Shown here: piece after piece, positions 31,451 to 63,178 of the stretch
Layout: each line of letters begins with the position of its first letter
Numbering within the stretch: position 1 is the stretch's first letter
Assembly (NCBI GenBank): GCA_000146045.2
Contig: BK006948.2
Location: 448,001 to 512,000, forward strand
Length of the DNA: 64,000 nucleotides
From: TPA_inf: Saccharomyces
Taxonomy: Eukaryota
Direction: 5' to 3'
Made by a program: the position numbers and the translations under genes
The notes under the pieces: model-generated
What the model was told of the DNA's origin: nothing
Database searches by the model: none
The model's input: the letters and a program-made list of their open reading frames with translations, nothing else

Positions 31451-31532
31451 GCAAAACAAGGCAAAGAACCTGATGGAAGAAAGCACAACCAGATATTAAT
31501 AGCAACGAAAAATAGTAGAGACATTGAAGAAT

Positions 31533-32420
31533 ATGAGTTTGAGAACGCCGAAGAGAAGCAGGACTAGCGATGAACAAGAACAAGAACAAGAACAAGAGCA
31601 GGTACAGAACCCAGATACACATGTAAACAACGAGCATCAGCAGCGACCTGGGCCAACCACTCTATTGAGCACGCCAGTACGTCTCAAAAATGGCTTTGGA
31701 ACACCATCGCCGCCGTCACCACCAGGCATAACGAAAAGCATCACTAAATCGAGAAGAAGGCCGTCGACAACGAGTCTTCAGGGTATATTCATGTCGCCCG
31801 TCAATAAGCGTCGTGTCGGCATAACCGCACATGGACGTGTATATGACCATAACGACGACGGACACGAAAGTGAGAGTGAGGACGACGAAAATGAAGAAGA
31901 AAATGAAAATCAAAAGAAGTACGACGGACACGTTAGTATGCCTTTGTTGCCACCGACAACGCCCAAGTCAAGACGGTCGGAGGTGTTTCTGTCGCCGTCG
32001 CCGCGTTTGAGGTCACCTCCGACGGCTGCGCGTCGGTCTACGGGCGAGCGGCCCATCCGCGAAATATCACATACTTTGCGCACCAGGCTCAATTACGCGT
32101 TAGTCAAGCTGCAAAATGGATGGACGGACAAGACACTTCCCGAGCTGGAGACGGAGCTTGCTCCAGCAGTGCAGACGCCGCCACGTCGCTATCACAACAG
32201 ATTTCCAGATAGTGCAGACGCGGGTACTTCCGCGCATACAGCGTTTCTTCAGGCGCTCGGAGGCCACCCACCACGGGAGGAGGCCACGGCTGTCGAAACA
32301 CTGATGCTATTGTCGTCGCCTACCAAGAAGCAACAACACCGACCCGTGCCGGCGACATCTGCTGGAGAACCCACGGACGAAACGGAGCCCGAGTCGGATA
32401 CCGAAGTGGAGACGTCTTAA
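31533..32420 (+). CDS. WHI5: Whi5, the repressor of G1/S (SBF) transcription.
   Basis: MSLRTPKRSRTSDEQEQEQ..., 295 aa from the Met at 31533, with many S/T-P sites (TPKSRRS, SPSPRLRSPP). Recognised as YOR083W. Confidence 0.85.
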   Translation: MSLRTPKRSRTSDEQEQEQEQEQVQNPDTHVNNEHQQRPGPTTLLSTPVRLKNGFGTPSPPSPPGITKSITKSRRRPSTTSLQGIFMSPVNKRRVGITAHGRVYDHNDDGHESESEDDENEEENENQKKYDGHVSMPLLPPTTPKSRRSEVFLSPSPRLRSPPTAARRSTGERPIREISHTLRTRLNYALVKLQNGWTDKTLPELETELAPAVQTPPRRYHNRFPDSADAGTSAHTAFLQALGGHPPREEATAVETLMLLSSPTKKQQHRPVPATSAGEPTDETEPESDTEVETS

Positions 32421-32586
32421 TGTGGTAGTACGAGTTTTTTCTCCGCAATCTCGGAGTTAGTGCAGCCGCGCCCGCTGCTGCACCCTTTAGCATATATATA
32501 AAGTGCGTAATGTGCGTGCTAAAAAAGCTCACTAGTGCGTACTCTGCTTATCTCTGCGTATCCGCCGATCAACATCCGCGGCTAAA

Positions 32587-33750
32587 ATGGAACAGAACAG
32601 GTTCAAGAAAGAAACGAAAACTTGTAGCGCTAGCTGGCCGCGCGCACCGCAGTCGACGCTGTGTGCGACAGATCGCCTCGAGCTCACATACGATGTGTAC
32701 ACTAGCGCAGAGCGGCAACGCCGCTCTCGCACTGCCACTAGGCTTAACCTTGTGTTTTTGCACGGCAGCGGCATGAGTAAGGTGGTATGGGAGTACTATT
32801 TGCCGCGTCTGGTAGCCGCCGATGCGGAGGGCAATTATGCCATCGACAAGGTTTTGTTGATCGACCAGGTTAACCACGGTGATTCTGCGGTACGCAACCG
32901 CGGCAGACTCGGCACCAATTTCAACTGGATCGACGGGGCCCGCGACGTGCTCAAGATTGCCACATGCGAGTTGGGCAGTATTGACAGCCACCCGGCACTA
33001 AACGTAGTCATCGGCCACTCGATGGGCGGGTTCCAGGCTCTTGCGTGTGACGTCCTGCAGCCCAATCTGTTTCATTTGCTCATCTTGATCGAGCCTGTAG
33101 TAATCACACGGAAAGCCATCGGCGCCGGGAGGCCAGGGCTTCCGCCCGATTCTCCGCAGATCCCAGAAAATCTTTATAACTCCCTACGTTTAAAGACGTG
33201 CGACCATTTCGCTAACGAGTCCGAATATGTAAAATATATGAGGAACGGTTCCTTTTTTACCAATGCGCACAGCCAAATCCTGCAAAACATCATCGATTTT
33301 GAGAGGACAAAAGCCTCTGGAGACGATGAAGATGGTGGACCCGTTCGCACGAAGATGGAGCAGGCTCAAAATCTCCTCTGCTACATGAACATGCAGACTT
33401 TTGCGCCTTTCCTGATCAGCAATGTGAAGTTTGTGAGGAAGCGGACTATCCACATTGTGGGCGCGCGCTCCAACTGGTGTCCTCCGCAAAATCAGCTGTT
33501 TTTGCAGAAAACTCTACAGAACTACCATCTCGATGTCATTCCCGGCGGCTCCCACTTGGTCAACGTTGAGGCTCCGGACCTGGTGATCGAGAGGATTAAT
33601 CACCACATCCACGAGTTTGTCCTTACCTCCCCGCTGCAGTCCTCACACATTCCGCAATTGACCCTTGAAGAAAGAGCGGTGATGTTTGACCGGGCTTTCG
33701 ACTCGTTCAAGAATGAAGCTTTGGTTAAAACGACTAAACAAAAACTGTAA
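32587..33750 (+). CDS. LPX1: Peroxisomal alpha/beta-hydrolase lipase with a C-terminal PTS1.
   Basis: 387-aa ORF. The nucleophile motif GHSMGG and the C-terminal tripeptide -QKL (a PTS1) are seen in the translation. Confidence 0.9.
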   Translation: MEQNRFKKETKTCSASWPRAPQSTLCATDRLELTYDVYTSAERQRRSRTATRLNLVFLHGSGMSKVVWEYYLPRLVAADAEGNYAIDKVLLIDQVNHGDSAVRNRGRLGTNFNWIDGARDVLKIATCELGSIDSHPALNVVIGHSMGGFQALACDVLQPNLFHLLILIEPVVITRKAIGAGRPGLPPDSPQIPENLYNSLRLKTCDHFANESEYVKYMRNGSFFTNAHSQILQNIIDFERTKASGDDEDGGPVRTKMEQAQNLLCYMNMQTFAPFLISNVKFVRKRTIHIVGARSNWCPPQNQLFLQKTLQNYHLDVIPGGSHLVNVEAPDLVIERINHHIHEFVLTSPLQSSHIPQLTLEERAVMFDRAFDSFKNEALVKTTKQKL

Positions 33751-34032
33751 ACACTTGTGTACACTATTACATATATTATTCAATAATAATTAACTGACGC
33801 AATCTATGGCACTGGCGTGGTTTCTTTTTCTTTTGTTTTCCGTGCAAGCGCGATGCAACTATATCGTCGAGGACGAATGTGTACCCGTCTTTCCGCCAGA
33901 CAGGTAACAAGTACTTCAATTGACTTAGAAGAAAAACATTAAGGAACTTTAACGTAGGAGCAACACAATACCAGGCACACGCTCTTCGAACACTGAACCA
34001 CACGCGTCCGCATCAAACTCTTCCTCCCAAAC

Positions 34033-39438: not shown

Positions 39439-39512
39439 GACTCCATGGCCAAGTTGGTTAAGGCGTGCGACTGTTAATCGCAAGATCGTGAGTTCAACCC
39501 TCACTGGGGTCG
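39439..39512 (+). tRNA. tRNA-Asn (anticodon GUU), intronless.
   Basis: GACTCCATGGCCAAGTTGGTTAAGGCGTGCGACTGTTAATCGCAAGATCGTGAGTTCAACCCTCACTGGGGTCG: a cloverleaf with anticodon GTT and a B box GGTTCAACCC(T). Confidence 0.9.
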
Positions 39513-44841: not shown

Positions 44842-45432
44842 GGAGAGATTGAGAGAAGTAAAAGCACTTCTTCTGTTGAAAAATTTCAGTAGAGCACAAA
44901 TTCAATTAAAGTAGCAATAGATGTTTCTTTTCCTGCCTATCACACGATTTCGTTTACCCTCCAATCGATCCTTTTTTTCTTTTTTGTATCTTGTGTAGAA
45001 AGAAGTGAATCCTGTTTTTCTACATAATGAAGGGCCGGTAACTGCTCATTACTGAGTTTTAAAGTAGAAAATAAAAATGTATGCAATTGGTCGCCAATAC
45101 CTGATAACTAAGAATGTAACTATGCAAGGGATAAGGAAATTTAGTCAATGCTGCCCATCACACCCTGAACAGCACAAGATTGCAACCTCTGAGAGTATTT
45201 CTTAAGTTGGAGACTAGTGGAGGAAATGAATTGGCACGTAGCTCGTCGAACATGATGAACTGTGATGATAATGAAAAAATTTTTGTTCCCCAGCGATGAG
45301 TTAGTGAAAATCGACAATATATCTTTTTTTAATCAATGTGTTTTACTATTTCTAGAAAGCAAGGGAAGCCACTCTATTAGTAAACCTCTGGGCTTTACAC
45401 ATATAAAATCGCAGGAAAGTTATATTTCGAAG

Positions 45433-46470
45433 ATGCCACCAAAAAAGGGAAAACAGGCCCAAGCGGCTGGTAAGAAGAAGGATAATGTCGACAAGACGTT
45501 CGGTATGAAGAACAAGAACCGTTCTACCAAAGTCCAAAAATACATCAAACAAGTGCAATCACAATCCGACCCCAAGAAAGAAGAGATGAGGTTAAAGAAA
45601 CTCGAAGAAAAAAAGCGCAGAGAAGCCGAAGAAGCTGAACGAAGAGCACTATTCAACCCTGTAGCAGACCAAAGGGTTCGTGCGGGTGTAGATCCCAAGT
45701 CCATGGTTTGTGCTCTGTTCAAACTGGGGAATTGTAACAAAGGTGCCAAATGTAAGTTCTCACATGACTTGAACGTCGGTAGAAGAATGGAAAAGAAAGA
45801 TTTATACCAAGATACAAGAAGTGAAAAGGAAAATGACACAATGGACAACTGGGATGAAGAAAAGCTGAGAAAAGTTATCCTGTCGAAGCACGGTAACCCA
45901 AAGACCACCACCGACAAAGTATGCAAATACTTCATCGAGGCCGTGGAAAACGGTAAATACGGTTGGTTTTGGATTTGTCCTAACGGAGGTGACAAATGTA
46001 TGTACAGACACTCCCTACCAGAGGGCTTTGTGCTGAAAACCAACGAGCAAAAGAGGCTCGAGAGGGAGTCGCTCGAGAAACAGCCAAAAATTACGCTGGA
46101 GGAGTTTATCGAAACAGAAAGAGGGAAACTAGACAAATCCAAGCTAACACCAATAACAATTGCCAACTTCGCCCAATGGAAGAAGGACCACGTCATCGCA
46201 AAGATTAACGCTGAAAAGAAGTTATCTAGTAAGAGGAAACCTACTGGTAGAGAAATCATTCTTAAGATGAGCGCCGAAAACAAGTCATTTGAGACGGACA
46301 ACGCCGACATGCCAGACGACGTCACCCAGGGATCCGCATGGGATCTTACTGAATTCACAGATGCCTTGAAGAAGGCTGACCACCAAGACGACGGCGGCAT
46401 CAAGGACTACGGTGACGGTAGCAACCCCACCTTCGACATCAAAAAAGCCAACTCCGCCACGCTCGCATAG
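45433..46470 (+). CDS. TMA46: CCCH zinc-finger translation-machinery-associated protein (a DRG/Rbg1 partner).
   Basis: The translation begins [16 protein letters not shown]... Two C-x8-C-x5-C-x3-H fingers are seen ([19 protein letters not shown]; [30 protein letters not shown]). The track's 402-aa ORF starts 57 codons upstream, but MPPKK is the recognised start (345 aa). Confidence 0.8.
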
Positions 46471-48968: not shown

Positions 48969-49505
48969 AGTTCGTTAAGGAAGAAACAAGATCTATTCAT
49001 GCATTCCCATTCTCATTCTCATAATTTCATTTCATCGTACAACTGAATCAGGGTGTAATTTTATAGTTGTTTGTTGGTCTTTTTTTATCAACGTAGAATT
49101 CACTTATTTCAGATTTTATAGAGTTTCATAGTATAAAAATAATAATGAAAACAAAACTTCATGCTTTTTCTTCTGTTTATACAATTTCACTTTTGATTGT
49201 TATTCAAAAAAATAACATTTAGTCGCAGCTTCTCAGTGTTACTAATCTTTTTCTTCTTTTTTCGAACATAAGATTTTCTGATGGAACGAAAAAAGGTGAT
49301 CTTTTAATTATTTGTGAATCATAAATATCCTTTTCATTAATTTTTAAGTGGTATAGCGTATTTACATATAAAACATACATGATTATTTCATGTTTATAAT
49401 CAAAAATTATAAATAATTATTTAATCTCTAATATAGATTAATTAGAGTCTTTCCACAACTCAGTAGCATCCAATAGTCATGACAAATTTACTGTACTTGG
49501 ATGTG

Positions 49506-52500
49506 TTAAATATTGTCCTTTTCATAATCTGATAATAAATAAATGGAAATATTTTCACCATAGTTTATGCCAAATTGTGCTTCTATTTGAATTTTCTGAT
49601 CAAACCAGGCTTGCATTATCGATGCTCTATTTTTCGCCCAAACTTCCATTATCATACTAGAATTTTTTGGGCTTATACCTTTAGTTCTCACAAATGTGCA
49701 TAAATCTAAAATGACACCATGCTTATTTAACAACTCTGAAACAATTAAAGTCGTTAGATTACCCAAGATGGGATTATGTCGTTCCTTACACCTAATTAAG
49801 CACACTAATAATCCACCTGCTTTGGCAATCAAACAACTACCAATGTCACTGTGAACATCTTTAACGGTTCTCTCCAAATCACTAACAAAATGTGTCAATC
49901 CTAGAATTTCAATGGATTCATGAATACTTCCCAAAACAAACAACAAGTTCAAATTGACGACCTCTCCCTGTGAATTCGTGCAACTTACGTTTTTGATAAA
50001 GCCCAGATCACCAGTTCTCAAATAGCTTAAAGTGTTATTCACTTCGCTCTTCATCTTACTTTTGAATTGTTCTGTGATAAAGGGATCTTTGTACAACTTG
50101 TTTTTTGAACTGTTACACACAAAGTAGTCGAATGCATTAGCTTCCGAACAGCACCAAATCTCACCGAATTCTCCATCAACACATGGTAGGAGTGTCTCTG
50201 GATTAACTACTGAAACGTCAGTACATACAGGAACAACACCAGAATCTTGAATCTTGATATAGTTTCCAGCACTTACATCATTGGGGTTGACTTCTCTAAT
50301 TATACCTTCCCTCAGTGAAAATGGGTCTAAATATAGGTCAACCGGAGGAATATCCAGATACGACCTTAATGATATAAGCGGATTGAAGTGATGTTGATAG
50401 ACATAACTTATTTGTGTACATGATAGGGATATGGTTGAGTACCGTTTTAAAATATTTTCAATTGTATAAATCCTTGGTCTATTAGGAAAAGGTATCATGA
50501 TATTTCGAACACCCTTGAAAACATCTTCTCTAAGCGAGCCAGATGTATTGTTTTTGGCAGAGTTTATATTCTCCTTCTTATTTTTGAATCCCTCAATCAA
50601 ACTAGAGGCTCTATCCAGTAAAGCATATAACGTTTCAAGCTTCAAATATAAATCTTTTACGTTTAAATTTTGAAGGCCAATTAAAAACTCCTTAGGGTCA
50701 GTAAGAACATCAGTAAGGCTGAATAAGCAAGTTGAAGCACCCGTATAAATTCCTAACAAACAGCTGAACATAAAGCCCAATCCAGATGTATGAGAACATA
50801 TAGAGAAAAGTGGACTATTATTTCTTAACTGCAAAGTTTCTTTGACTATTTTGCTTGCATTCAGTAAAGACGAATGTGTCATTGTTACGTGAATATTAGA
50901 TGTTACATCATACTCTGTATTTACCCATACAACACACGGTGTCATACCAATCCTAGTACCTGGTTTGGCCCCAAATTTCTGCTTTAACACATTCTTAAAC
51001 ATAGATACTGTTAACGCATTCTTTGTCTTGACTTTTGAGAAAACTGTAATCTTGGGTATCAAACTTTTGTATTTCTTAAAACATTTGTTTACGACATTAT
51101 TATCATTCAACAATGAGTGCAATTTAGCATCAACAAATACTCTTTTCACTTTGTAACTTTGAATAATATTAACCAAGCCTTTTAGGTCCTCTTCTATGAC
51201 AGACTCCTTAACGCTTGGTAGGGGAATTACCAATAAGTTACAGTACAGGCAGGCCATGATCATCGCTACGTATTCAACCGAATTTTCACACATAATAATA
51301 ATAGGGTCACCATGCTTCAATGGAATTTTAGAACCTACGATTTTTTTCAAAAAGCCTGCGACAATTTTACCAAAACTTGCCCATGATACCTTTTTGTGAA
51401 CGTTATTATCGTTACTAGCTGAAGAGTTGACTAGGTTTGTGTTTGTACCATCACTGAACGCCGTTTCGTTCCCATAATTAGAAATTCTCCATTCCAGAAT
51501 CTCTAAAATCGATTTGAAGTCTGTGAGTTTTGTATGGCTTCGAGTGTCAACAGACTCATCTCTGTAATCAACACCACTGCATTGTAGGGCAAGTTTTGGT
51601 TTAACGGGACCGCCATTACGATATGCTGGTTCGATCATAGCGTATTCTTCTTGTAAAGCCATCTTTCTCAATTTTGATAAATGCTCGGATAATATACTCT
51701 CATTATAGTACGCTGAATGGGGCAAAAAATCCAATATGACATTATCGAATTGAAACTTTACAAACTGTGCACTGAGATCATTGTTTAAAAACTTCTTCTC
51801 TACCGTGCTATTGGCCAATTCCAGAGAACAATATCTCCTAGGTAAAGTATCTCTCGGCACAACTAAAATGCACATTGGTTGGATTTTATGAAAAATCCAA
51901 AGAATTCTAAAAATTTGGTCAGTTAAATCATTCATTTTCGTTTCTAATTTGTTCCTCTGTGTTTCTGCAAATTTCATTAAGGTAGTATCTGTTGTTTCGC
52001 CATTTTTACTCTCTTCTTCGGTTTTTGCTAGGGAGCTTTCTACCACCATAACTAAAAAGTGCTCTTCTTTATGGTGTTGTAATTCAAATGCAGCAACCTC
52101 AAAAACTGTATTTACTGTCCTCACAACTGTTTCAGTAATCTGTTGTAGATAGTGGGATTCAACAACTCTTTTGTATCCCGAAGATGTTTCGCCACTTAAA
52201 CTCGAAATATCAATAGCCTTAGTGCTTTCTGCTCCAGTGTTACCTTTAGGTTGAGCAGATTGATTCCCTTTTTTGGCATAAAGAAGGTTTGATGTGTGAG
52301 CCCAGTTAGGTAATCTGATTAATCTATTCTGTAAAAACATATCTTCTATGAGTGAAAGCACGTATATCTTTCCGTTATGAACAAACCCCATAAGCTTGGT
52401 TCTCATAAAGTAGGTATTTGCAGGACAAATATTCAGAATGGTATCCAATTGTTCAGTAACTGCTTGCGATTTTTCGTTAGTAGGCATTTCATACTTTGCC

Positions 52501-54452
52501 CAAGAAAACATTTCGGAGTAATTTAGTTTTGCTTTGAACACAAATTCGTTCACTTTATCCATCTGGTAAAATTCGTCGGTGATGTGGTTAGAAGAGATCC
52601 ATATTTCTCCAACAGTGAGGTCTTGCACCAACGTATTCGTATCTGGATTAACCACACATAAAGTGATATCAGGAATTGGGAAGCCAAATGTTTCTAATTT
52701 AAGATAATCTTTGAAGGAGCTTGATGAATTAATCATAGCAGTTATGCTACATTCAACCTCATTAAGCTTCAATTTCTCGCGGTTTATAAACAATTCATTT
52801 TGAAGCCTTAGTTTTGAATTATGTATTGGAAAGTTCTCTAGGTTTCCTAATTGATCTCTTATAGATATAAAGATACCACCAAAGTCCAATAACGTTAACA
52901 TGGGAGAATAACAAAATGGTGCATCAATACATCCTAAATTTTTCAGCCATTTATGAACAACCATCTCGCTTACATCGGTATCTATAGTGGTACATGAGGT
53001 TAAACATGACTTGATGCAACTGAAATCTATTTTGTGCTTCTTGGAAAAAGCTGATTCGGGATTTTCCAAATAATTAATAACTACCTGCTTCAATTGTAGC
53101 TGATCATTCAGTAAAATGTCGGCTCTAAATTTATCAATGATATTTTCATAGCCCCCAGGTCGTTGTAATATACTACTATCGATAGATATCATAAGATTAC
53201 CAGTAAAAAGATTGAAAAGCACACCCATTATCAAACCAGTAGATCTAGTAGGGTCCAGACTATTCAAGATAACAAACCTTGAGTTGGTTGCCATAATTTT
53301 TTTGTGAAATGGCTTCCTGATGCTTTGTGATTTTTGTTTCCAGTGAGGCATTGATCGTGAGTTTAGAATTTTTGTCATCGTTTCAAATTGGTTTATTAAG
53401 ATGTTATGCTTCATGACGACGCCAGAAAGACGACCTAGCGGTGTTCTAGTAAACTCTATATATGAAATATTCGGTATATCAAAGGTAGGCGAAGTTTTTT
53501 TTGCCTTTGTGTACGTCCCTAAGTCATCAGTCTTGACAAATTTGATTTGCTGGAAAACATCGTTCTTAACCAGTTTAACTTTTGAATGATTTGATGACGA
53601 ATACAAGTTATCTAATTGTCTATGACATGCGTTAGAAATCAGAACAAATTTCGAATTTGTTACTTTAATTATCTCAAGGATCTCACGCAGAGAATACGTT
53701 TCGAATGAGACTGGTACAGCTGCCATGCCGGATATGAAACAGCCTAATAATGCAATAGTAAATTCGATGACATCATTTTTATTGTACCATAGTAAAATCT
53801 TATCCATTTTGTAAAGGTGACTCTTATTCAATTCATGTGCTACCCTCTCCGCTTTCAAATAAAGTTTATCCCATGTGATGAACGTTTCTTTGCCTTTAGA
53901 ATTTATGCTGATCATCGCTGTTTGACCATCATAATGTTCAAAGCGTCCCCGTAAAATTAGCGGTAAAGAATCCGTCATTGCTGAGTCTCCACTGCTAGTA
54001 TTTTCGGCTCCAGTGTGTCTTGGTAGTAATGGTATCATAGGATTATAAACGGCATCCTTCACTGAACCGTTTTCATCACTGGAACCTGGCAATGACGATT
54101 GCAAAGAAGCTGTATATCTCTTGCTCCGCCTTCTGGGAGTATTGTTCGCAGAAGTCGAGTTTATAGTTGTGACACGATAGATAGAATGACGTCTGTCAAT
54201 TGAATTAGGTAACGACGTAATGGATGATGCAAGACTTGTATTTCTTCTGTGCAAATGTTTCGACTTTCTCGAATTGGGAGATCGAAGCGGGGTATAAGGC
54301 CTCATTTGGGAGATTTCAAATTTGTCTAGCAATTGTTTTCTTTTGGTCTCATAACCCTTTCTTGTTAGATTTTCATCCTTATAGTCTTGAATTAACTCAT
54401 TTAACCGACTTTGCAGATCTAGAGGTAAGGTAGGAGGAATAGAAAAATCCAT
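49506..54452 (-). CDS. CMR2: Very large DIP2-like protein with two tandem degenerate adenylate-forming (fatty-acyl-AMP-ligase-like) domains (YOR093C/CMR2).
   Basis: 1648-aa ORF. The conserved AMP-binding core motif is seen once in canonical form (SYLRTGDLGF) and once degenerate (YFMRTKLMGF), with degenerate P-loop-like segments (FTRTPLGRLSGVVMKH; ICSHTSGLGFMF). Confidence 0.8.
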   Translation of the reverse strand: MDFSIPPTLPLDLQSRLNELIQDYKDENLTRKGYETKRKQLLDKFEISQMRPYTPLRSPNSRKSKHLHRRNTSLASSITSLPNSIDRRHSIYRVTTINSTSANNTPRRRSKRYTASLQSSLPGSSDENGSVKDAVYNPMIPLLPRHTGAENTSSGDSAMTDSLPLILRGRFEHYDGQTAMISINSKGKETFITWDKLYLKAERVAHELNKSHLYKMDKILLWYNKNDVIEFTIALLGCFISGMAAVPVSFETYSLREILEIIKVTNSKFVLISNACHRQLDNLYSSSNHSKVKLVKNDVFQQIKFVKTDDLGTYTKAKKTSPTFDIPNISYIEFTRTPLGRLSGVVMKHNILINQFETMTKILNSRSMPHWKQKSQSIRKPFHKKIMATNSRFVILNSLDPTRSTGLIMGVLFNLFTGNLMISIDSSILQRPGGYENIIDKFRADILLNDQLQLKQVVINYLENPESAFSKKHKIDFSCIKSCLTSCTTIDTDVSEMVVHKWLKNLGCIDAPFCYSPMLTLLDFGGIFISIRDQLGNLENFPIHNSKLRLQNELFINREKLKLNEVECSITAMINSSSSFKDYLKLETFGFPIPDITLCVVNPDTNTLVQDLTVGEIWISSNHITDEFYQMDKVNEFVFKAKLNYSEMFSWAKYEMPTNEKSQAVTEQLDTILNICPANTYFMRTKLMGFVHNGKIYVLSLIEDMFLQNRLIRLPNWAHTSNLLYAKKGNQSAQPKGNTGAESTKAIDISSLSGETSSGYKRVVESHYLQQITETVVRTVNTVFEVAAFELQHHKEEHFLVMVVESSLAKTEEESKNGETTDTTLMKFAETQRNKLETKMNDLTDQIFRILWIFHKIQPMCILVVPRDTLPRRYCSLELANSTVEKKFLNNDLSAQFVKFQFDNVILDFLPHSAYYNESILSEHLSKLRKMALQEEYAMIEPAYRNGGPVKPKLALQCSGVDYRDESVDTRSHTKLTDFKSILEILEWRISNYGNETAFSDGTNTNLVNSSASNDNNVHKKVSWASFGKIVAGFLKKIVGSKIPLKHGDPIIIMCENSVEYVAMIMACLYCNLLVIPLPSVKESVIEEDLKGLVNIIQSYKVKRVFVDAKLHSLLNDNNVVNKCFKKYKSLIPKITVFSKVKTKNALTVSMFKNVLKQKFGAKPGTRIGMTPCVVWVNTEYDVTSNIHVTMTHSSLLNASKIVKETLQLRNNSPLFSICSHTSGLGFMFSCLLGIYTGASTCLFSLTDVLTDPKEFLIGLQNLNVKDLYLKLETLYALLDRASSLIEGFKNKKENINSAKNNTSGSLREDVFKGVRNIMIPFPNRPRIYTIENILKRYSTISLSCTQISYVYQHHFNPLISLRSYLDIPPVDLYLDPFSLREGIIREVNPNDVSAGNYIKIQDSGVVPVCTDVSVVNPETLLPCVDGEFGEIWCCSEANAFDYFVCNSSKNKLYKDPFITEQFKSKMKSEVNNTLSYLRTGDLGFIKNVSCTNSQGEVVNLNLLFVLGSIHESIEILGLTHFVSDLERTVKDVHSDIGSCLIAKAGGLLVCLIRCKERHNPILGNLTTLIVSELLNKHGVILDLCTFVRTKGISPKNSSMIMEVWAKNRASIMQAWFDQKIQIEAQFGINYGENISIYLLSDYEKDNI

Positions 54453-54794
54453 TGGAGTAACTCAATGCCACACGCTTTTACACAGAACTGAATCACCCTA
54501 ACACCAAGTTTACGGAAGCAAATGTTAAATCTGTTGAAGCTCTTTTGACTACATTATAAACAGAAATAAAACATACTAGAAAGTAATCGGGTTTTGACGA
54601 TTTCATCCATTACCCGTCCGAATGATGGCACTTATAAGATAATGAAGATGTACGCAGCATTAAAACCCTATTTGCAGAAGCATAGTAAGACGCAACGTAC
54701 GCTGAATTAGACTGAGACATTACAGTTGCTTTGACATTGGGAAGATAATTGGGATTTAGAACGGAAAAAAGGAAAAGACAAGCTAATTGTAGAG

Positions 54795-59947: not shown

Positions 59948-62900
59948 TTACCTTTTAGAGTGCCTCATTCTTGCAATCTTTCTGTTCGCCATAACACCAC
60001 CGCCCATGCTCATGCCATTATTTGTTCCCATCCCCATCTGATTAGGGGCTGACTGCGGCTGCCCAAAAGAAGTTGTCGGCACACCACCTGCCCCCCCAAA
60101 AATGGATGATGGATTTGTTACGTTTGAATTGGAACCAGAGGCAGCATTCGCACCAAATATATCACTTGGCCTTAATGCATTGGTCGCGGTATTAGTAATT
60201 CCGCCATTCAATCCGCTAAAATTAATATTAGGAACTGTTGATGGCGTGAATGAGCTGTTTGTATTGAAAGATGGGGTTTGCGATTGATGTGGTTGGTTAT
60301 TAGAGCCGGCAAACACCGTATTAGCATTAGTGTTGCCGTTCATATTAAATACAGAGCCGCCACCAGGCGTTGAATTATTTCCCGTAAAATTAAAAGCAGA
60401 GGGAACATTGACATTTTGTGCATTCGTGGAAGGAGGTTTATTGAATAAACCAGCATTAGCATTAGTTGACGAAGTTGCTGATGTAAAAGGATTGAGACCC
60501 CCTGCACCATTGTTTCCAAAATTAAATGAAGATTGATTAGAAGCTGCACCAGTTGCTGCTGTTCCTGAGCTCGAAAAGCCAAATGCCGAGCCCGCTCCAT
60601 TCGTATTGCCACTAGCGATACTTTGATCCGGTTTTCCTACGTTAAATGTACCCGCTATATTGGTTCCTGAGGTATTGGAAGTAGTAGTTGTGCCGTTACC
60701 AGTAGCAGGGGCGTTAAACGAGAATGATGTGGAGTTTGCTGAGGCATTGGTACCATTGGTGTTAGCAGTACCGAATGAAAATGCAGATTTAGATGTTGTA
60801 TTACCAGTAGCGTCTGTTGGCTTACCCAAGACAGGAATCGGCGTTGAGGAAGCAGAACCATCGAAGAAAGAAGTTGGAGAGTTTGACTTTTCTTTATTGT
60901 GATTGAACTTTGTAAAGGAAAAGCCATTTGATAGCTTCTCCGTATTTGCTGCCGCTGTACTTGCTGTCGACTTCATCGACTCGGGAGCCCCAAAACTAAA
61001 AGATGGTTTTGTGCTAGTGGTTGTTGTATTATTTGTTGTGGAACCGCCAAAGGTGAAAGATGGCGGTGTAGGTCTTTTATCTGTCTCATTAGCAGGAGGT
61101 TTAGTGAAAGAAAATGAGGTGTTAGAGCCTGGTGGTTCTTTAGCTGCATCTGACTTACCAAATGAAAACAATGGCTTTGGTTGTGAGGTTTTTGAAGACG
61201 CAAACGTAAAGGAGGGCTTTTTAGGTTCCGAAACAACAGATGAATCTTTTTGAGCAGGTTCAGTAAAAGAAAAAGTTGGCTTGAGAGTCTTATCATCCGT
61301 CGGTGCTTGAACATCAACAGGCTTGCCCGGAAACGAAAACGAGGGTTTAGCTGCTTCGTTTGAAATTGGACTACTCTTACGTTCCTCCTCTGACTTAGAG
61401 AAAGAGAATGTAGGTTTCGCACTTCCCTCAGAGATCTTATTTTCACTTGTTGACTGCCCAAAAGTAAAAGTAGGCTTCTTGACTATTGTGGCAGGTGTCT
61501 CAGATGGTTTGGTGTGTGTTTCTTTCGCGGTGGCGGCTTTACCAAAGGTAAATTGTGCAGAGGAGTCAATATTGCTTGTTACATCAGCTTTTTTTCCGAA
61601 TGTAAATAATGGTGTACCTTCAGCTTGCTTATCACTTGCACCAAAGACAAAGCTTGGTTTCCCTGATGCGTCCTTTTCTGACTCTCCCTTTTTGGTCTCC
61701 TTTTGATCACCGGTCTTGCCGAAATCGAATAAAGGCTTGGTGTTTGTATCCTCGCTAACAGGTAAACGCCTTTTTCTTTTGGGCTCATTTTCATCATCAC
61801 CTTCATCACCATTCTCTTCTTGTTTACCAAAAGAAAATATTGGAGCAGTTGATTTTGGAGGCGCGTCTGATTCTGTATGATTTTCACTTTTTTCGGATGT
61901 CTTTCCAAATTTAAAAGGTTGACTGGCAGAAGTAACGGTATCTGATTTACCACCAAAATTGAATAAAGTTGTGGAAGGGACAGTATTGTCGACAGCCTTA
62001 GTTTTATTAGCCTTTTGGCTAAAATTGAATGATAAGGTAGGCGCCTCGGCAGTTTTCGTTGACTTATCGGTTTTTCCCATTTCTACACTCGATTTAAAGA
62101 CTGCACCTGCAGAAGAAGTTGCCTTAGGAGAAGTTTTCTTAGATGGAGTCTCATTGTCCTTGATAAAGTCAAAACCTACGGTGGGCAAAACAATACTTTC
62201 TTTGTCCTTTTTGGGCTCAATATTTTTCTTTAACGTAGGCGTACCAGAGCGCTCTGAATTGGGAACAAAGCTCTCCTGAATAGGGGCAGTTTTTGCAACT
62301 GTGGAAGCTGGTCCTTTTAAAAGTAGATTTTTTTGAGGATTCGATAACCTATTAGAGTTGATGTCTGCACGTAGGTCTTCAATTTCGCTTGTCAGGTTAG
62401 GGCCTGTAGCCAGATTGCCATTTGAAATACTACTCTTAATATTATTTCTATTCTCGCTTGTCTTCTGATCACCGCCAGCGTTACCTTCCTTATCCTTGTT
62501 ATCCTTTTTTTGTATAGCGTCATATTCTGACAAATCATATTCAAAATTTGCTGACCACACGGTCCCCTTTGACTGACTATGAAACCTTTTTCTATTGGAT
62601 CTATTTTTCAATGATTTGAGAATGGGTAGTCCAACATTGGTGTCTTCACCGCTTTTTCCGGCCAACTGCCTAGTGCAAGAACCGTTTTTAATAGGGGAAG
62701 GAGTAGATGATGTGCATAGGTACGATCCTCCCTCATCGCTTTTACTTTGAGAGCCCAATATAACCGACGATGTAATAGATGGAAATTCAGTTGATTGAAT
62801 TAATCCAAGCTCACGCATATTTCTCACCCTCTGCTTCTCCCTTAATAACCTCAGTCTTTGAATGGGCAAAATTGGCAAAAGCGGCGGTCTCTCAGTGTTT

Positions 62901-63178
62901 TCGGTTCCATATATTATAATTGGCGCATTATTGTTGTTCTGAGTTAAGCTGTCGCTATGCTGTGATGTACCGGACACCCTCTTTCTCTTATTAACATGCA
63001 GTGTGTCTTCAACATCTGATTCCTCCAAATGATTCGCGTATGAGAGGTTTGAACTGAAAACTTTCTTGCTCGATGGCCGTTTTTTATTGGGGTTTGTGAA
63101 GAATGATTTTAAAGTGGAAGAAAACGATCTCTTTTCGACACGTGGAGAAGACATCACAGAAGAAGTGTTTGAAGACAT
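59948..63178 (-). CDS. NUP1: FG-nucleoporin of the nuclear basket (FxFG/FSFG repeat array).
   Basis: 1076-aa ORF. There are more than 20 F(S/T)FG repeats (PTFSFG, PSFSFG, PSFTFG, SAFSFG...) separated by S/T/K-rich spacers. The N-terminus MSSNTSSVMSSPRVEKRSFSS matches NUP1. Confidence 0.95.
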   Translation of the reverse strand: MSSNTSSVMSSPRVEKRSFSSTLKSFFTNPNKKRPSSKKVFSSNLSYANHLEESDVEDTLHVNKRKRVSGTSQHSDSLTQNNNNAPIIIYGTENTERPPLLPILPIQRLRLLREKQRVRNMRELGLIQSTEFPSITSSVILGSQSKSDEGGSYLCTSSTPSPIKNGSCTRQLAGKSGEDTNVGLPILKSLKNRSNRKRFHSQSKGTVWSANFEYDLSEYDAIQKKDNKDKEGNAGGDQKTSENRNNIKSSISNGNLATGPNLTSEIEDLRADINSNRLSNPQKNLLLKGPASTVAKTAPIQESFVPNSERSGTPTLKKNIEPKKDKESIVLPTVGFDFIKDNETPSKKTSPKATSSAGAVFKSSVEMGKTDKSTKTAEAPTLSFNFSQKANKTKAVDNTVPSTTLFNFGGKSDTVTSASQPFKFGKTSEKSENHTESDAPPKSTAPIFSFGKQEENGDEGDDENEPKRKRRLPVSEDTNTKPLFDFGKTGDQKETKKGESEKDASGKPSFVFGASDKQAEGTPLFTFGKKADVTSNIDSSAQFTFGKAATAKETHTKPSETPATIVKKPTFTFGQSTSENKISEGSAKPTFSFSKSEEERKSSPISNEAAKPSFSFPGKPVDVQAPTDDKTLKPTFSFTEPAQKDSSVVSEPKKPSFTFASSKTSQPKPLFSFGKSDAAKEPPGSNTSFSFTKPPANETDKRPTPPSFTFGGSTTNNTTTTSTKPSFSFGAPESMKSTASTAAANTEKLSNGFSFTKFNHNKEKSNSPTSFFDGSASSTPIPVLGKPTDATGNTTSKSAFSFGTANTNGTNASANSTSFSFNAPATGNGTTTTSNTSGTNIAGTFNVGKPDQSIASGNTNGAGSAFGFSSSGTAATGAASNQSSFNFGNNGAGGLNPFTSATSSTNANAGLFNKPPSTNAQNVNVPSAFNFTGNNSTPGGGSVFNMNGNTNANTVFAGSNNQPHQSQTPSFNTNSSFTPSTVPNINFSGLNGGITNTATNALRPSDIFGANAASGSNSNVTNPSSIFGGAGGVPTTSFGQPQSAPNQMGMGTNNGMSMGGGVMANRKIARMRHSKR

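What the first reader, a model, noticed from the sequence alone, without database searches (positions are those of the whole stretch)
49506..54452. CMR2/YOR093C: 1648-aa protein with two degenerate adenylation domains (DIP2-like)
This is the largest ORF in the window. Its product contains the canonical adenylate-forming 'YRTGD' core once intact (SYLRTGDLGF, C-terminal module) and once degraded (YFMRTKLMGF, N-terminal module). Its P-loop-like segments deviate strongly from the [ST][ST]G[ST]TGxPKG consensus. Tandem fatty-acyl-AMP-ligase-like modules in which one or both have lost canonical ATP-binding residues are the defining architecture of DIP2 proteins. Whether both modules are catalytic, and on what lipid substrate, is not obvious from the sequence. 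It remains one of the least characterised large yeast genes.
Basis: partly seen in the sequence, partly recalled or inferred. Interest (0 to 1): 0.5.

Follow-up and report, generated by a model that had tools for sequence, protein, structure and literature searches.

The report
Yeast CMR2/DIP2, a known lipid regulator

Summary
ORF 49506-54452 (-) encodes 1648 aa. YFMRTKLMGF is at aa 681-690, SYLRTGDLGF at 1476-1485, and there is no canonical P-loop. Pfam gives the full DIP2 architecture: DMAP_binding, AMP-binding, Mug62, AMP-binding and AMP-dom_DIP2-like. Each half alone passes the AMP-binding threshold, and both AlphaFold models match bacterial fatty acyl-AMP ligases (FAALs) best. Published CMR2 primers match the window exactly, so this is CMR2/YOR093C.

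The claim that the gene is poorly characterised is outdated. Since 2022 it has been studied as ScDIP2. It drives C36:0/36:1 DAG to TAG at mitochondria-vacuole contacts and tunes Pkc1. Module-1 mutants D523A and L687A lose function. Module-2 mutants N1357A and D1482A are reported to keep it.

My comparison of 227 DIP2s adds detail. Module 1 never has the ribose-binding A7 Asp (Leu in 222). Module 2 keeps it in 96 of 98 fungi but has Tyr or Phe in all 123 animals. The intact RTGD is therefore a fungal retention and does not mark the working module. Neither module has a full adenylation residue set, and no in-vitro adenylation has been reported, so the chemistry is still unproven.

Verdict: already known; low to moderate interest.

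The parts
49506..54452 (-). CMR2/DIP2 (YOR093C) coding sequence, 1648 codons plus stop
   Evidence: ORF listing. 100% identical S. cerevisiae cluster P0001. Published CMR2 primers match exactly, including the deletion arms at 54450-54504 and 49454-49508.
54093..54437 (-). DMAP1-binding domain (DBD1), aa 6-120
   Evidence: Pfam PF06464, E = 1.8e-25. Reported dispensable for ER-stress rescue (PMC9342972).
51726..53975 (-). FAAL-like domain 1 (FLD1), aa 160-909: N-terminal AMP-binding subdomain plus Mug62-type C-terminal subdomain (aa 757-909)
   Evidence: Pfam AMP-binding 67.2 bits and Mug62 PF24919 E = 3e-34 on the isolated half. AF2 pLDDT 83.4. Foldseek top hits are FAALs, E = 4e-38, TM 0.85-0.86. 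hhalign against bacterial FAALs E = 6e-90.
53421..53453 (-). FLD1 degenerate P-loop (A3), aa 334-344, FTRTPLGRLSG; the Lys position is S343
   Evidence: Aligned to YTSGSTGDPKG by HMMER, MAFFT and hhalign.
52884..52886 (-). D523, at the A5 Glu position of FLD1; the published D523A is loss-of-function
   Evidence: hhalign and MAFFT register. Glu in every non-Saccharomycetaceae DIP2 and Asp in 68 of 69 sequences of the Saccharomycetaceae/Hanseniaspora group. Mutant data from PMC9342972 and PMC12055004.
52383..52412 (-). FLD1 degraded A7 motif, aa 681-690, YFMRTKLMGF; K686 is at the Gly position and L687 at the Asp position
   Evidence: register. The Asp position is Leu in 222 of 227 DIP2s and never Asp. 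The published L687A is loss-of-function.
49509..51605 (-). FAAL-like domain 2 (FLD2), aa 950-1648, including the DIP2-type C-terminal subdomain (aa 1512-1626, window 49575-49919)
   Evidence: Pfam AMP-binding 39.1 bits and PF23024 E = 6.8e-31 on the isolated half. AF2 pLDDT 86.9. Foldseek top 31 hits are all FAALs, E = 3e-37. hhalign E = 2e-96.
50883..50921 (-). FLD2 position of the lost P-loop (A3), aa 1178-1190, NTEYDVTSNIHVT
   Evidence: MAFFT and hhalign: 1 of 9 consensus positions kept and no glycine.
49998..50027 (-). FLD2 intact A7 motif, aa 1476-1485, SYLRTGDLGF; D1482 is the canonical Asp
   Evidence: YLRTGDLGF is identical to the Legionella FAAL 3kxw motif. Asp in 96 of 98 fungal DIP2s and Tyr or Phe in 123 of 123 animal DIP2s. 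D1482A is reported to keep function.

Best explanation
The ORF is the known S. cerevisiae gene CMR2/YOR093C, now called DIP2. [quoted passage not shown] SHOWN in the literature by genetics and lipidomics: the protein sits at mitochondria and mitochondria-vacuole contacts. It lowers a minor pool of C36:0/C36:1 diacylglycerol while the matching triacylglycerols rise. Losing it causes ER stress, vacuole-fusion and osmoadaptation defects, and Pkc1 hyperactivation. Both FLDs are needed in cis. FLD1 point mutants D523A and L687A are null, while FLD2 mutants N1357A and D1482A retain function. INFERRED and not shown: the published model is that FLD1 activates a fatty acid as an acyl-adenylate, which is used without CoA to acylate these DAGs to TAG, with FLD2 acting as a diverged non-catalytic partner. 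My sequence analysis agrees that FLD1 is the more likely working site, because its acidic A5 residue is universal and a partial P-loop survives. It also shows that FLD1 lacks the A7 ribose-binding Asp and the A10 Lys in every DIP2 examined. If it does adenylate, it must bind ATP in a non-canonical way. The intact YLRTGD in FLD2 is a fungal-lineage retention of the ancestral FAAL motif and is not evidence that FLD2 is the active module.
For: Identity. Neighbours by Pfam (Whi5-like, alpha/beta hydrolase, tricalbin-type C2/SMP, PP2C and Mem_trans on one side; Arf and ribose-5-P isomerase on the other) fit my recollection of the chromosome XV gene order. Architecture: Pfam DMAP_binding, AMP-binding, Mug62 and AMP-dom_DIP2-like, with each half passing AMP-binding alone. 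FAAL affinity: the best NCBIfam hits are FAAL families, the best PDB sequence hits are FAALs, and the Foldseek top hits for both AF2 models are FAALs. Function: PMC9342972, PMC12055004, PMC11631473 and the 2026 bioRxiv preprint. Motif states and their conservation across 104 fungal, nucleariid and animal sequences plus 119 further animal DIP2s. FLD1 has Glu or Asp at A5 in 226 of 227, consistent with retained Mg-nucleotide chemistry. Animals lack the A7 Asp in both modules yet are reported to share the DAG-regulating function, which fits D1482 being dispensable.
Against: No acyl-adenylate formation, ATP binding or DAG-to-TAG conversion has been reconstituted; the authors state they failed 'despite significant efforts'. 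FLD1 lacks three of the residues that general ANL enzymology (Gulick 2009, from my own knowledge) treats as central to adenylation. These are the A7 Asp (Leu), the A10 Lys (Glu in yeast by hhalign) and, in Saccharomycetaceae, the P-loop Lys/Arg (Ser). The 'catalytic' mutant L687A changes one hydrophobic residue into another, so it does not specifically test catalysis. The text describes only expression, localisation and tunicamycin-rescue panels for the FLD2 mutants, and the constructs described are GAL1-driven, so a quantitative role for D1482 is not excluded. Near-absolute conservation of D1482 in fungi and of N1357 in all DIP2s implies selection that the published assays did not detect.
Confidence: 0.55

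Rival explanations
1. Tandem pseudoenzyme. Neither FLD forms an acyl-adenylate. Dip2 uses the FAAL acyl-chain tunnel(s) to bind C18:0-containing DAG or fatty acyl chains. It acts as a lipid sensor, presenter, transfer protein or scaffold at mitochondria-vacuole contacts and hands the selected DAGs to a conventional acyltransferase such as Dga1, Lro1 or Are1/2.
For: Neither module has a complete adenylation residue set. The A7 Asp is missing from FLD1 in 227 of 227 DIP2s and from FLD2 in all animals. In-vitro reconstitution failed, and the authors say the involvement of known acyltransferases cannot be ruled out. L687 is a hydrophobic residue in the former nucleotide pocket, and its mutation to Ala is null. 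The protein localises to a contact site.
Against: The acidic A5 residue of FLD1, which is a Mg2+ ligand in ANL enzymes by general knowledge, is kept in 226 of 227 sequences and D523A is null. The A6 GEIW, the A7 Arg-Thr and part of the P-loop (T, G, R/K, G outside Saccharomycetaceae) are also kept, which is more than a pure lipid-binding role obviously needs. DAG accumulates in the deletion although all known acyltransferases are present.
Confidence: 0.25
2. In fungi FLD2 is the adenylating or at least nucleotide-binding module, as the intact YLRTGD suggests, and FLD1 is the degenerate partner. This is the reading the first reader's observation invites.
For: FLD2 carries an A7 motif identical to bacterial FAALs. 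The Asp is kept in 96 of 98 fungi spanning Mucoromycota to Saccharomyces. A Lys lies one residue off the A10 Lys position, as GEKQR in most DIP2s and WAKNR in yeast. FLD2 is required for function in truncation experiments.
Against: FLD2 has no P-loop at all (1 of 9 positions, no Gly) and Phe at the A5 Glu position. D1482A and N1357A are reported not to cause loss of function. Animal DIP2s, reported to share the DAG function, have Tyr or Phe at this Asp in 123 of 123.
Confidence: 0.1
3. Dip2 makes a CoA thioester, acting as an acyl- or acetyl-CoA synthetase as generic 'acyl-CoA synthetase (AMP-forming)' annotations suggest, and affects DAG/TAG indirectly through acyl-CoA supply.
For: Some sources annotate orthologues as 'acyl-CoA synthetase (AMP-forming)/AMP-acid ligase II' or 'acetyl-CoA synthetase-like'. 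Weak NCBIfam hits of the FLD1 N-terminus to acyl-CoA synthetase families lie far below their cutoffs.
Against: The best sequence and structure relatives of both modules are FAALs, not FACLs. Patil et al. 2021 report that the CoA-rejecting FAAL features (FSI, FSH, blocked canonical pocket) are identifiable in fungal and animal FLDs. The phenotype is restricted to two DAG species rather than the bulk lipids expected from a change in acyl-CoA supply.
Confidence: 0.05

Closest known systems
S. cerevisiae Dip2/Cmr2 (YOR093C) as characterised by Mondal et al. 2022 (PMC9342972) and Shambhavi et al. 2025 (PMC12055004)
   Same: It is the same gene. The published primers match the window exactly, and mutated residues D523, L687, N1357 and D1482 fall at the expected codons.
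   Different: Nothing differs in sequence. My motif census qualifies one statement in that paper. It says A5 and A7 are conserved in FLD1 and degenerate in FLD2. Measured against the ANL consensus, the FLD1 A7 lacks the Asp everywhere, while the fungal FLD2 A7 is fully canonical. The FLD2 A7 degeneration holds for animals and the nucleariid.
Animal DIP2 proteins (Drosophila DIP2, C. elegans DIP-2, vertebrate DIP2A/B/C)
   Same: The same Pfam set is precomputed for almost all of them (DMAP_binding, AMP-binding, Mug62, AMP-dom_DIP2-like). FLD1 has RTG-L at A7 and Glu at A5. N1357 of FLD2 is nearly invariant. They are reported to share selective DAG regulation.
   Different: Identity to yeast is only about 20%. 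Animal FLD2 has Tyr or Phe instead of D1482, but keeps a more P-loop-like 'STTGxLxG'. Yeast FLD1 has extra lineage-specific changes (K686, S343, D523) and a roughly 54-aa insertion after A8.
CPS1 of filamentous fungal pathogens (Cochliobolus, Magnaporthe, Coccidioides)
   Same: The literature describes CPS1 as a fungal DIP2-family member with a DMAP1-binding domain and two FAAL-like domains. Pezizomycotina orthologues retrieved here have the same Pfam set and RTGD in FLD2.
   Different: The Pezizomycotina proteins are longer (about 1800-1940 aa). They keep Gly and Arg where yeast FLD1 has K686 and S343. They are known as virulence factors rather than through DAG lipidomics.
Bacterial fatty acyl-AMP ligases (olefin synthase FAAL 7r7e-g, FadD32, FadD23, Legionella 3kxw, E. 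coli 3pbk)
   Same: They are the best structural matches for both modules (E about 1e-37, TM up to 0.86). They share the two-subdomain ANL fold, the A6 GEIW and the A7 RT. The FLD2 A7 is identical to theirs. The A5-to-NPxT spacing is FAAL-like.
   Different: Bacterial FAALs have complete A3, A5, A7, A8 and A10 motifs and load holo-ACP of PKS/NRPS systems. Cmr2 lacks several of these residues in each module, is a tandem fusion, and has no ACP, PKS or NRPS partner nearby.

Membership tests
DIP2 (Disco-interacting protein 2) family | N-terminal DMAP1-binding domain | tested here: met
   PF06464, E = 1.8e-25, aa 6-120.
DIP2 (Disco-interacting protein 2) family | Two tandem FAAL-like (AMP-binding) modules in one polypeptide | tested here: met
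   Each half alone passes the PF00501 gathering score (67.2 and 39.1 bits against 29.9). Both AF2 models hit FAAL structures. hhalign of FLD1 against FLD2 gives E = 2e-88.
DIP2 (Disco-interacting protein 2) family | DIP2-type C-terminal subdomains (Pfam Mug62 PF24919 after module 1; AMP-dom_DIP2-like PF23024 after module 2) | tested here: met
   E = 1.7e-33 (aa 757-909) and E = 4.1e-31 (aa 1512-1626).
DIP2 (Disco-interacting protein 2) family | Full-length homology to animal DIP2 | tested here: met
   The link is through an intermediate: yeast to nucleariid Nk52 at E = 5.8e-17 over 84% of the query, and Nk52 to nematode and bryozoan DIP2 at E = 1e-131 to 1e-133. Family-specific residues are shared, namely the FLD1 RT(G/K)L and N1357 of FLD2.
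Catalytically canonical ANL adenylate-forming enzyme | A3 P-loop [ST][ST]G[ST]TGxPKG | tested here: not met
   FLD1 matches 3 of 9 positions with Lys replaced by Ser. FLD2 matches 1 of 9 and has no Gly.
Catalytically canonical ANL adenylate-forming enzyme | A5 Glu (YGxTE) | tested here: inconclusive
   FLD1 has D523, a conservative change, and Glu in other lineages. FLD2 has F1356 followed by N1357, so the feature is not met there.
Catalytically canonical ANL adenylate-forming enzyme | A7 Asp (Y-x-R-T-G-D), the ribose ligand | tested here: not met
   FLD1 has RTKL, with L687 at the Asp position; no Asp occurs there in any of 227 DIP2s. FLD2 has RTGD, which meets the feature in that module only.
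Catalytically canonical ANL adenylate-forming enzyme | A10 catalytic Lys (PxxxxGK) | tested here: not met
   In FLD1 the Lys aligns with a Glu. In FLD2 a Lys sits one residue downstream (WAKNR, or GEKQR in other DIP2s), which leaves FLD2 inconclusive.
Catalytically canonical ANL adenylate-forming enzyme | Acyl-adenylate formation from ATP plus a carboxylic acid | not testable with these tools
   This needs biochemistry. The literature reports failed reconstitution of the overall reaction.
Fatty acyl-AMP ligase (FAAL) clade of the ANL superfamily | Closer to FAALs than to acyl-CoA ligases in sequence and fold | tested here: met
   The top NCBIfam hits are FAAL families, although all lie far below the family cutoffs. 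The top PDB sequence hits are FAALs. Foldseek ranks FAALs 1-31 for FLD2 and 1-27 for FLD1.
Fatty acyl-AMP ligase (FAAL) clade of the ANL superfamily | FAAL-specific insertion after A5 | tested here: inconclusive
   The spacing from the A5 position to the VVNP(D/E)T strand is 77 aa in FLD1 and 59 aa in FLD2, against 57 aa in a bacterial FAAL. This is compatible with an insertion, but no FACL comparator or 3D check was run. Patil et al. 2021 report that the FSI is identifiable in fungal FLDs.
Fatty acyl-AMP ligase (FAAL) clade of the ANL superfamily | Transfer of the acyl group to holo-ACP of a PKS/NRPS partner | tested here: not met
   The protein has no ACP, PKS or NRPS domain, and none was found in the eight neighbouring ORFs scanned. 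The acceptor in yeast is unknown.

The most novel reading that the evidence does not exclude
Dip2 may be a tandem pseudo-FAAL. Neither module would carry out canonical adenylation. The former nucleotide and acyl pockets, with L687 replacing the ribose-binding Asp in every DIP2, would have been repurposed to recognise C18:0-containing DAG or acyl chains. That would make Dip2 an acyl-chain-selective lipid sensor or hand-off factor at mitochondria-vacuole contacts rather than an enzyme. A milder variant is that FLD1 still adenylates, but through an ATP-binding mode not seen in any solved ANL enzyme. In Saccharomycetaceae this mode would include a relocated positive charge (P-loop R/K changed to S343, together with A7 Gly changed to K686).
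Probability: 0.25. Interest if true: 0.6.

Novelty: already known. Interest (0 to 1): 0.22.

Why it matters
DIP2 proteins are linked to fungal virulence (CPS1, and a Coccidioides vaccine strain), neuronal morphology and neurodevelopmental disorders. Yeast Dip2 is the tractable model for how cells regulate one acyl-chain-defined DAG pool that drives Pkc1. The gene, its architecture and its phenotype are already published, so the finding adds nothing new at that level. What remains open is the chemistry. The residue census here shows that the residue used in the field as the 'catalytic' mutation (L687) occupies the position of a lost catalytic Asp. It also shows that no DIP2 module anywhere has a full adenylation set, and that fungi conserve a canonical A7 in the module reported as dispensable. 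These points sharpen which biochemical experiments would settle whether DIP2 is an enzyme at all.

Tried and rejected
1. I searched with patterns for a canonical or relaxed P-loop anywhere in the protein and found none.

2. I suspected the FLD1 A7 Asp-to-Leu call might be an alignment artefact. I rejected this because MAFFT with bacterial FAALs, two further MAFFT alignments of 104 and 127 sequences and profile-profile hhalign all give the same register.

3. I considered that the intact RTGD marks FLD2 as the active module. This is disfavoured by the published D1482A result and by Tyr or Phe at that site in 123 of 123 animals.

4. I considered a composite active site, because FLD1 keeps partial A3 and A5 while FLD2 keeps A7 and a near-A10 Lys. 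No evidence supports it. A3, A5 and A7 line one pocket in the same subdomain of solved ANL enzymes, so I did not pursue it.

5. Model coordinates are not exposed to the scripting tool, so only Foldseek scores and sequence-based residue mapping were possible.

6. I looked for overlapping or antisense ORFs inside the interval and found none of 70 aa or more.

7. The first two homologue searches gave only four animal sequences. A third search seeded with the bryozoan DIP2 fixed that, but the best 120 listed contained no vertebrates, so the vertebrate paralogues were not examined directly.

8. A whole-word literature search for 'CMR2' was swamped by CRISPR Cmr2 and cardiac MRI papers. It added only the 2024 review.
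Full report
OBSERVATION. The window has an ATG-initiated ORF at 49506..54452 on the minus strand encoding 1648 aa. It is the largest ORF in the window; the next largest are 1192 and 1076 aa. No other ORF of 70 aa or more overlaps it in any frame. Neither a strict nor a loose P-loop pattern matches anywhere in the protein.

IDENTITY. The best database cluster is 100% identical over 1648 aa and comes from S. cerevisiae. Orthologues are named Cmr2p or 'similar to S. cerevisiae YOR093C'. The primers published for CMR2 deletion, cloning and mutagenesis (Supplementary Table 3 of PMC9342972) match the window exactly. The two deletion arms abut the start and stop codons at 54450-54504 and 49454-49508. 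The mutagenic primers place D523, L687, N1357 and D1482 at the expected codons. Pfam assignments for eight neighbouring ORFs are Whi5-like, alpha/beta hydrolase, tricalbin-type C2/SMP, PP2C and Mem_trans on one side, and Arf and ribose-5-phosphate isomerase on the other. These fit my recollection of the chromosome XV gene order WHI5-LPX1-TCB1-PTC5-ECM3-CMR2-ARF3-RKI1. The gene names are from memory; the families were tested.

ARCHITECTURE. Pfam on the whole protein gives DMAP_binding (aa 6-120, E = 1.8e-25) and AMP-binding (five stretches, 99.8 bits). It also gives Mug62 (aa 757-909, E = 1.7e-33) and AMP-dom_DIP2-like (aa 1512-1626, E = 4.1e-31). Both halves pass the AMP-binding gathering score of 29.9 bits, with 67.2 bits for aa 158-950 and 39.1 bits for aa 955-1648. 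So 'no AMP-binding domain in either half' is refuted, and so is 'both halves retain a canonical P-loop'. The best NCBIfam matches are fatty-acid-AMP ligase families, all far below their family cutoffs. The best PDB sequence matches are FAALs (Legionella 3kxw, olefin-synthase FAAL 7r7e-g, FadD23, FadD28). AlphaFold2 models built from 42-sequence alignments are confident: FLD1 has pLDDT 83.4 and pTM 0.83, and FLD2 has pLDDT 86.9 and pTM 0.88. Foldseek against the PDB returns FAALs as the top 27 hits for FLD1 and the top 31 for FLD2 (E about 1e-37, target-normalised TM up to 0.86). NRPS A-domains and acyl-CoA ligases rank below them. Both modules are therefore FAAL-like domains, and the protein has the complete DIP2 architecture.

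MOTIF STATES. I aligned both modules of 17 DIP2s with eight bacterial FAAL domains recovered in the searches. I checked the register independently with profile-profile hhalign, which gave probability 100% and E = 6e-90 and 2e-96. The bacterial FAAL consensus at each motif is as follows:
- A3: YTSGSTGxPKG
- A5: YGLAE
- A7: YLRTGDLGF
- A8: TGRxKD
- A10: SSGKIQR

FLD1 of Cmr2 compares like this:
- A3 is FTRTPLGRLSG, matching 3 of 9 positions, with the Lys replaced by S343.
- A5 is LTLLD, with the Glu replaced by D523.
- A7 is FMRTKLMGF, with the Gly replaced by K686 and the Asp by L687.
- A8 is LSLIED, with the Arg replaced by Leu, followed by an insertion of about 54 aa.
- The A10 Lys aligns with a Glu.

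FLD2 of Cmr2 compares like this:
- A3 is absent (NTEYDVTSNIH, 1 of 9 positions, no glycine).
- A5 is YQHHF followed by N, so the Glu position is F1356 and N1357 is next to it.
- A7 is YLRTGDLGF, identical to bacterial FAALs.
- A8 is LGSIHE.
- A10 is WAKNR, with a Lys one residue off register.

Both modules keep A6 (GEIW).

FAMILY-WIDE CENSUS. I examined 104 DIP2s from the first two searches: 98 fungi, one nucleariid, four animals and one extra ascomycete. I added 119 more animal sequences from a third search. The pattern is very clean:
- The FLD1 A7 Asp position is Leu in 222 of 227 sequences and I, W or Y in the rest. It is never Asp.
- The FLD1 A5 position is Glu everywhere, except that it is Asp in the Saccharomycetaceae/Hanseniaspora group, where one sequence has Ala.
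- The FLD2 A7 Asp is kept in 96 of 98 fungi, from Mucoromycota to Saccharomyces. It is Tyr in the nucleariid, and Tyr (111) or Phe (12) in all 123 animals.
- N1357 is nearly invariant throughout.
- The Saccharomycetaceae/Hanseniaspora group carries two linked lineage-specific changes in FLD1. The P-loop Arg/Lys is replaced by Ser (S343), and the A7 Gly is replaced by Lys (K686), in 69 of 69 sequences.

WHAT IS ALREADY KNOWN. The protein was recognised as a FAAL-like didomain protein of the DIP2/CPS1 family in Patil et al. 2021 (PMC8460268). That paper already notes divergence in the motifs of the eukaryotic FAAL-like domains. Mondal et al. 2022 (PMC9342972) characterised 'ScDIP2 (Cmr2, YOR093c)'. 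The deletion accumulates C36:0 and C36:1 DAG and loses the related TAGs, causing ER stress and defects in vacuole fusion and osmoadaptation. The protein localises to mitochondria and mitochondria-vacuole contacts. The FLD1-FLD2 didomain is necessary and sufficient, and DBD1 is dispensable. FLD1 mutants fail to complement, and FLD2 mutants do not lose function. The primer table identifies the mutants as D523A, L687A, N1357A and D1482A. Shambhavi et al. 2025 (PMC12055004) and a 2026 preprint link Dip2-controlled DAGs to Pkc1 signalling and mitochondrial integrity. Both use D523A and L687A as 'catalytically inactive' alleles. A 2024 review summarises this work.

HOW IT MOST LIKELY WORKS. Genetics and lipidomics show that Dip2 selectively lowers C18:0-containing C36 DAGs in favour of TAG, and that this needs both FLDs and residues D523 and L687. 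The published model is an inference: FLD1 adenylates a fatty acid and the acyl-adenylate is used, without CoA, to acylate DAG. The authors state that they could not reconstitute the reaction and cannot exclude the known acyltransferases. My census supports FLD1 as the more plausible working site, given its universal acidic A5 residue and its partial P-loop with R/K in most lineages. It also shows that FLD1 lacks the A7 Asp and the A10 Lys in all DIP2s. General ANL enzymology (Gulick 2009, from my own knowledge) treats these residues as central to ribose binding and adenylation. L687A is a hydrophobic-to-hydrophobic change at the site of the lost Asp, so its null phenotype does not by itself demonstrate catalysis. 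I put the published enzyme model at about 0.55, a pseudoenzyme or lipid-binding model at about 0.25, an FLD2-active model at about 0.10 and a CoA-ligase model at about 0.05.

ONE DISCREPANCY WITH THE LITERATURE. Mondal et al. state that A5 and A7 are conserved in FLD1 of all opisthokonts and degenerate in FLD2. Measured against the ANL consensus, this holds for A5. For A7, it holds only in the sense that the FLD1 variant RTGL is conserved within DIP2. In fungi, including the yeast protein they studied, the FLD2 A7 is fully canonical and under strong conservation. It is degenerate only in animals and the nucleariid. As far as the text describes, D1482A was assessed only for expression, localisation and tunicamycin rescue, and the constructs described are GAL1-driven. 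The reason fungi conserve this Asp is unexplained.

NOVELTY AND SCORE. The gene, its family, its architecture, its motif degeneracy and its phenotype are all published, so the novelty rating is 'already known'. The remaining interest is the unresolved chemistry and the lineage-specific motif pattern documented here. These would interest a specialist modestly and suggest concrete experiments. Interest is 0.22.

Noticed in passing
window 53421-53453 (aa 334-344) and 52383-52412 (aa 681-690): All 69 sequences of the Saccharomycetaceae/Hanseniaspora group carry two changes together in FLD1. The P-loop Arg/Lys is replaced by Ser (S343) and the A7 Gly by Lys (K686). Most also have Arg or Lys at 341 (GRLSG, against GDLRG or GELKG elsewhere). 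This could be a relocation of a positive charge within the former nucleotide pocket. It is a single phylogenetic event, so it is not statistical covariation.
   Followed up: partly
window 50381-50383 (aa N1357) and 50007-50009 (aa D1482): N1357 is nearly invariant in FLD2 across fungi, the nucleariid and animals (about 218 of 222). D1482 is kept in 96 of 98 fungi. Both alanine mutants are nevertheless reported as functional in the published assay. That implies selection for something the assay did not measure.
   Followed up: partly
window 52173-52334 (aa 707-760): An insertion of about 54 aa lies right after the FLD1 A8/hinge motif. It is Ser/Lys/Gly-rich and has low pLDDT (aa 730-757). It is present in the Saccharomycetaceae/Hanseniaspora sequences aligned, shorter in other fungi and absent from animals and bacterial FAALs. 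Because it sits at the hinge between the N- and C-terminal subdomains, it could restrict or regulate domain rotation.
   Followed up: no
window aa-level comparison of FLD1 and FLD2 (49509-53975): The degeneracy of the two modules is roughly complementary in fungi. FLD1 keeps a partial A3 and the A5 acidic residue but lacks the A7 Asp and the A10 Lys. FLD2 lacks A3 and the A5 Glu but keeps the A7 Asp and a Lys one residue from A10. There is no evidence of a shared site; I only note the pattern.
   Followed up: no
window 32001-34000: This is the most GC-rich stretch of the window, at 0.52 against roughly 0.34-0.43 elsewhere. It covers the Whi5-like ORF (31524-32420) and the alpha/beta-hydrolase ORF (32587-33750). 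The cause was not examined.
   Followed up: no
window 39439-39512 (+): A single tRNA-Asn (GTT) gene lies between the tricalbin-like ORF and the next ORF.
   Followed up: no
window 45262-46470 (+) and 45420-46403 (-): Two long ORFs (402 aa with a GTG start, and 327 aa with a TTG start) overlap almost completely on opposite strands. One of them is presumably spurious.
   Followed up: no
window 59948-63178 (-): This 1076-aa ORF has no Pfam hit at E <= 1e-5. From memory of the chromosome XV gene order and the protein length it is probably the FG-nucleoporin NUP1. I did not test this.
   Followed up: no
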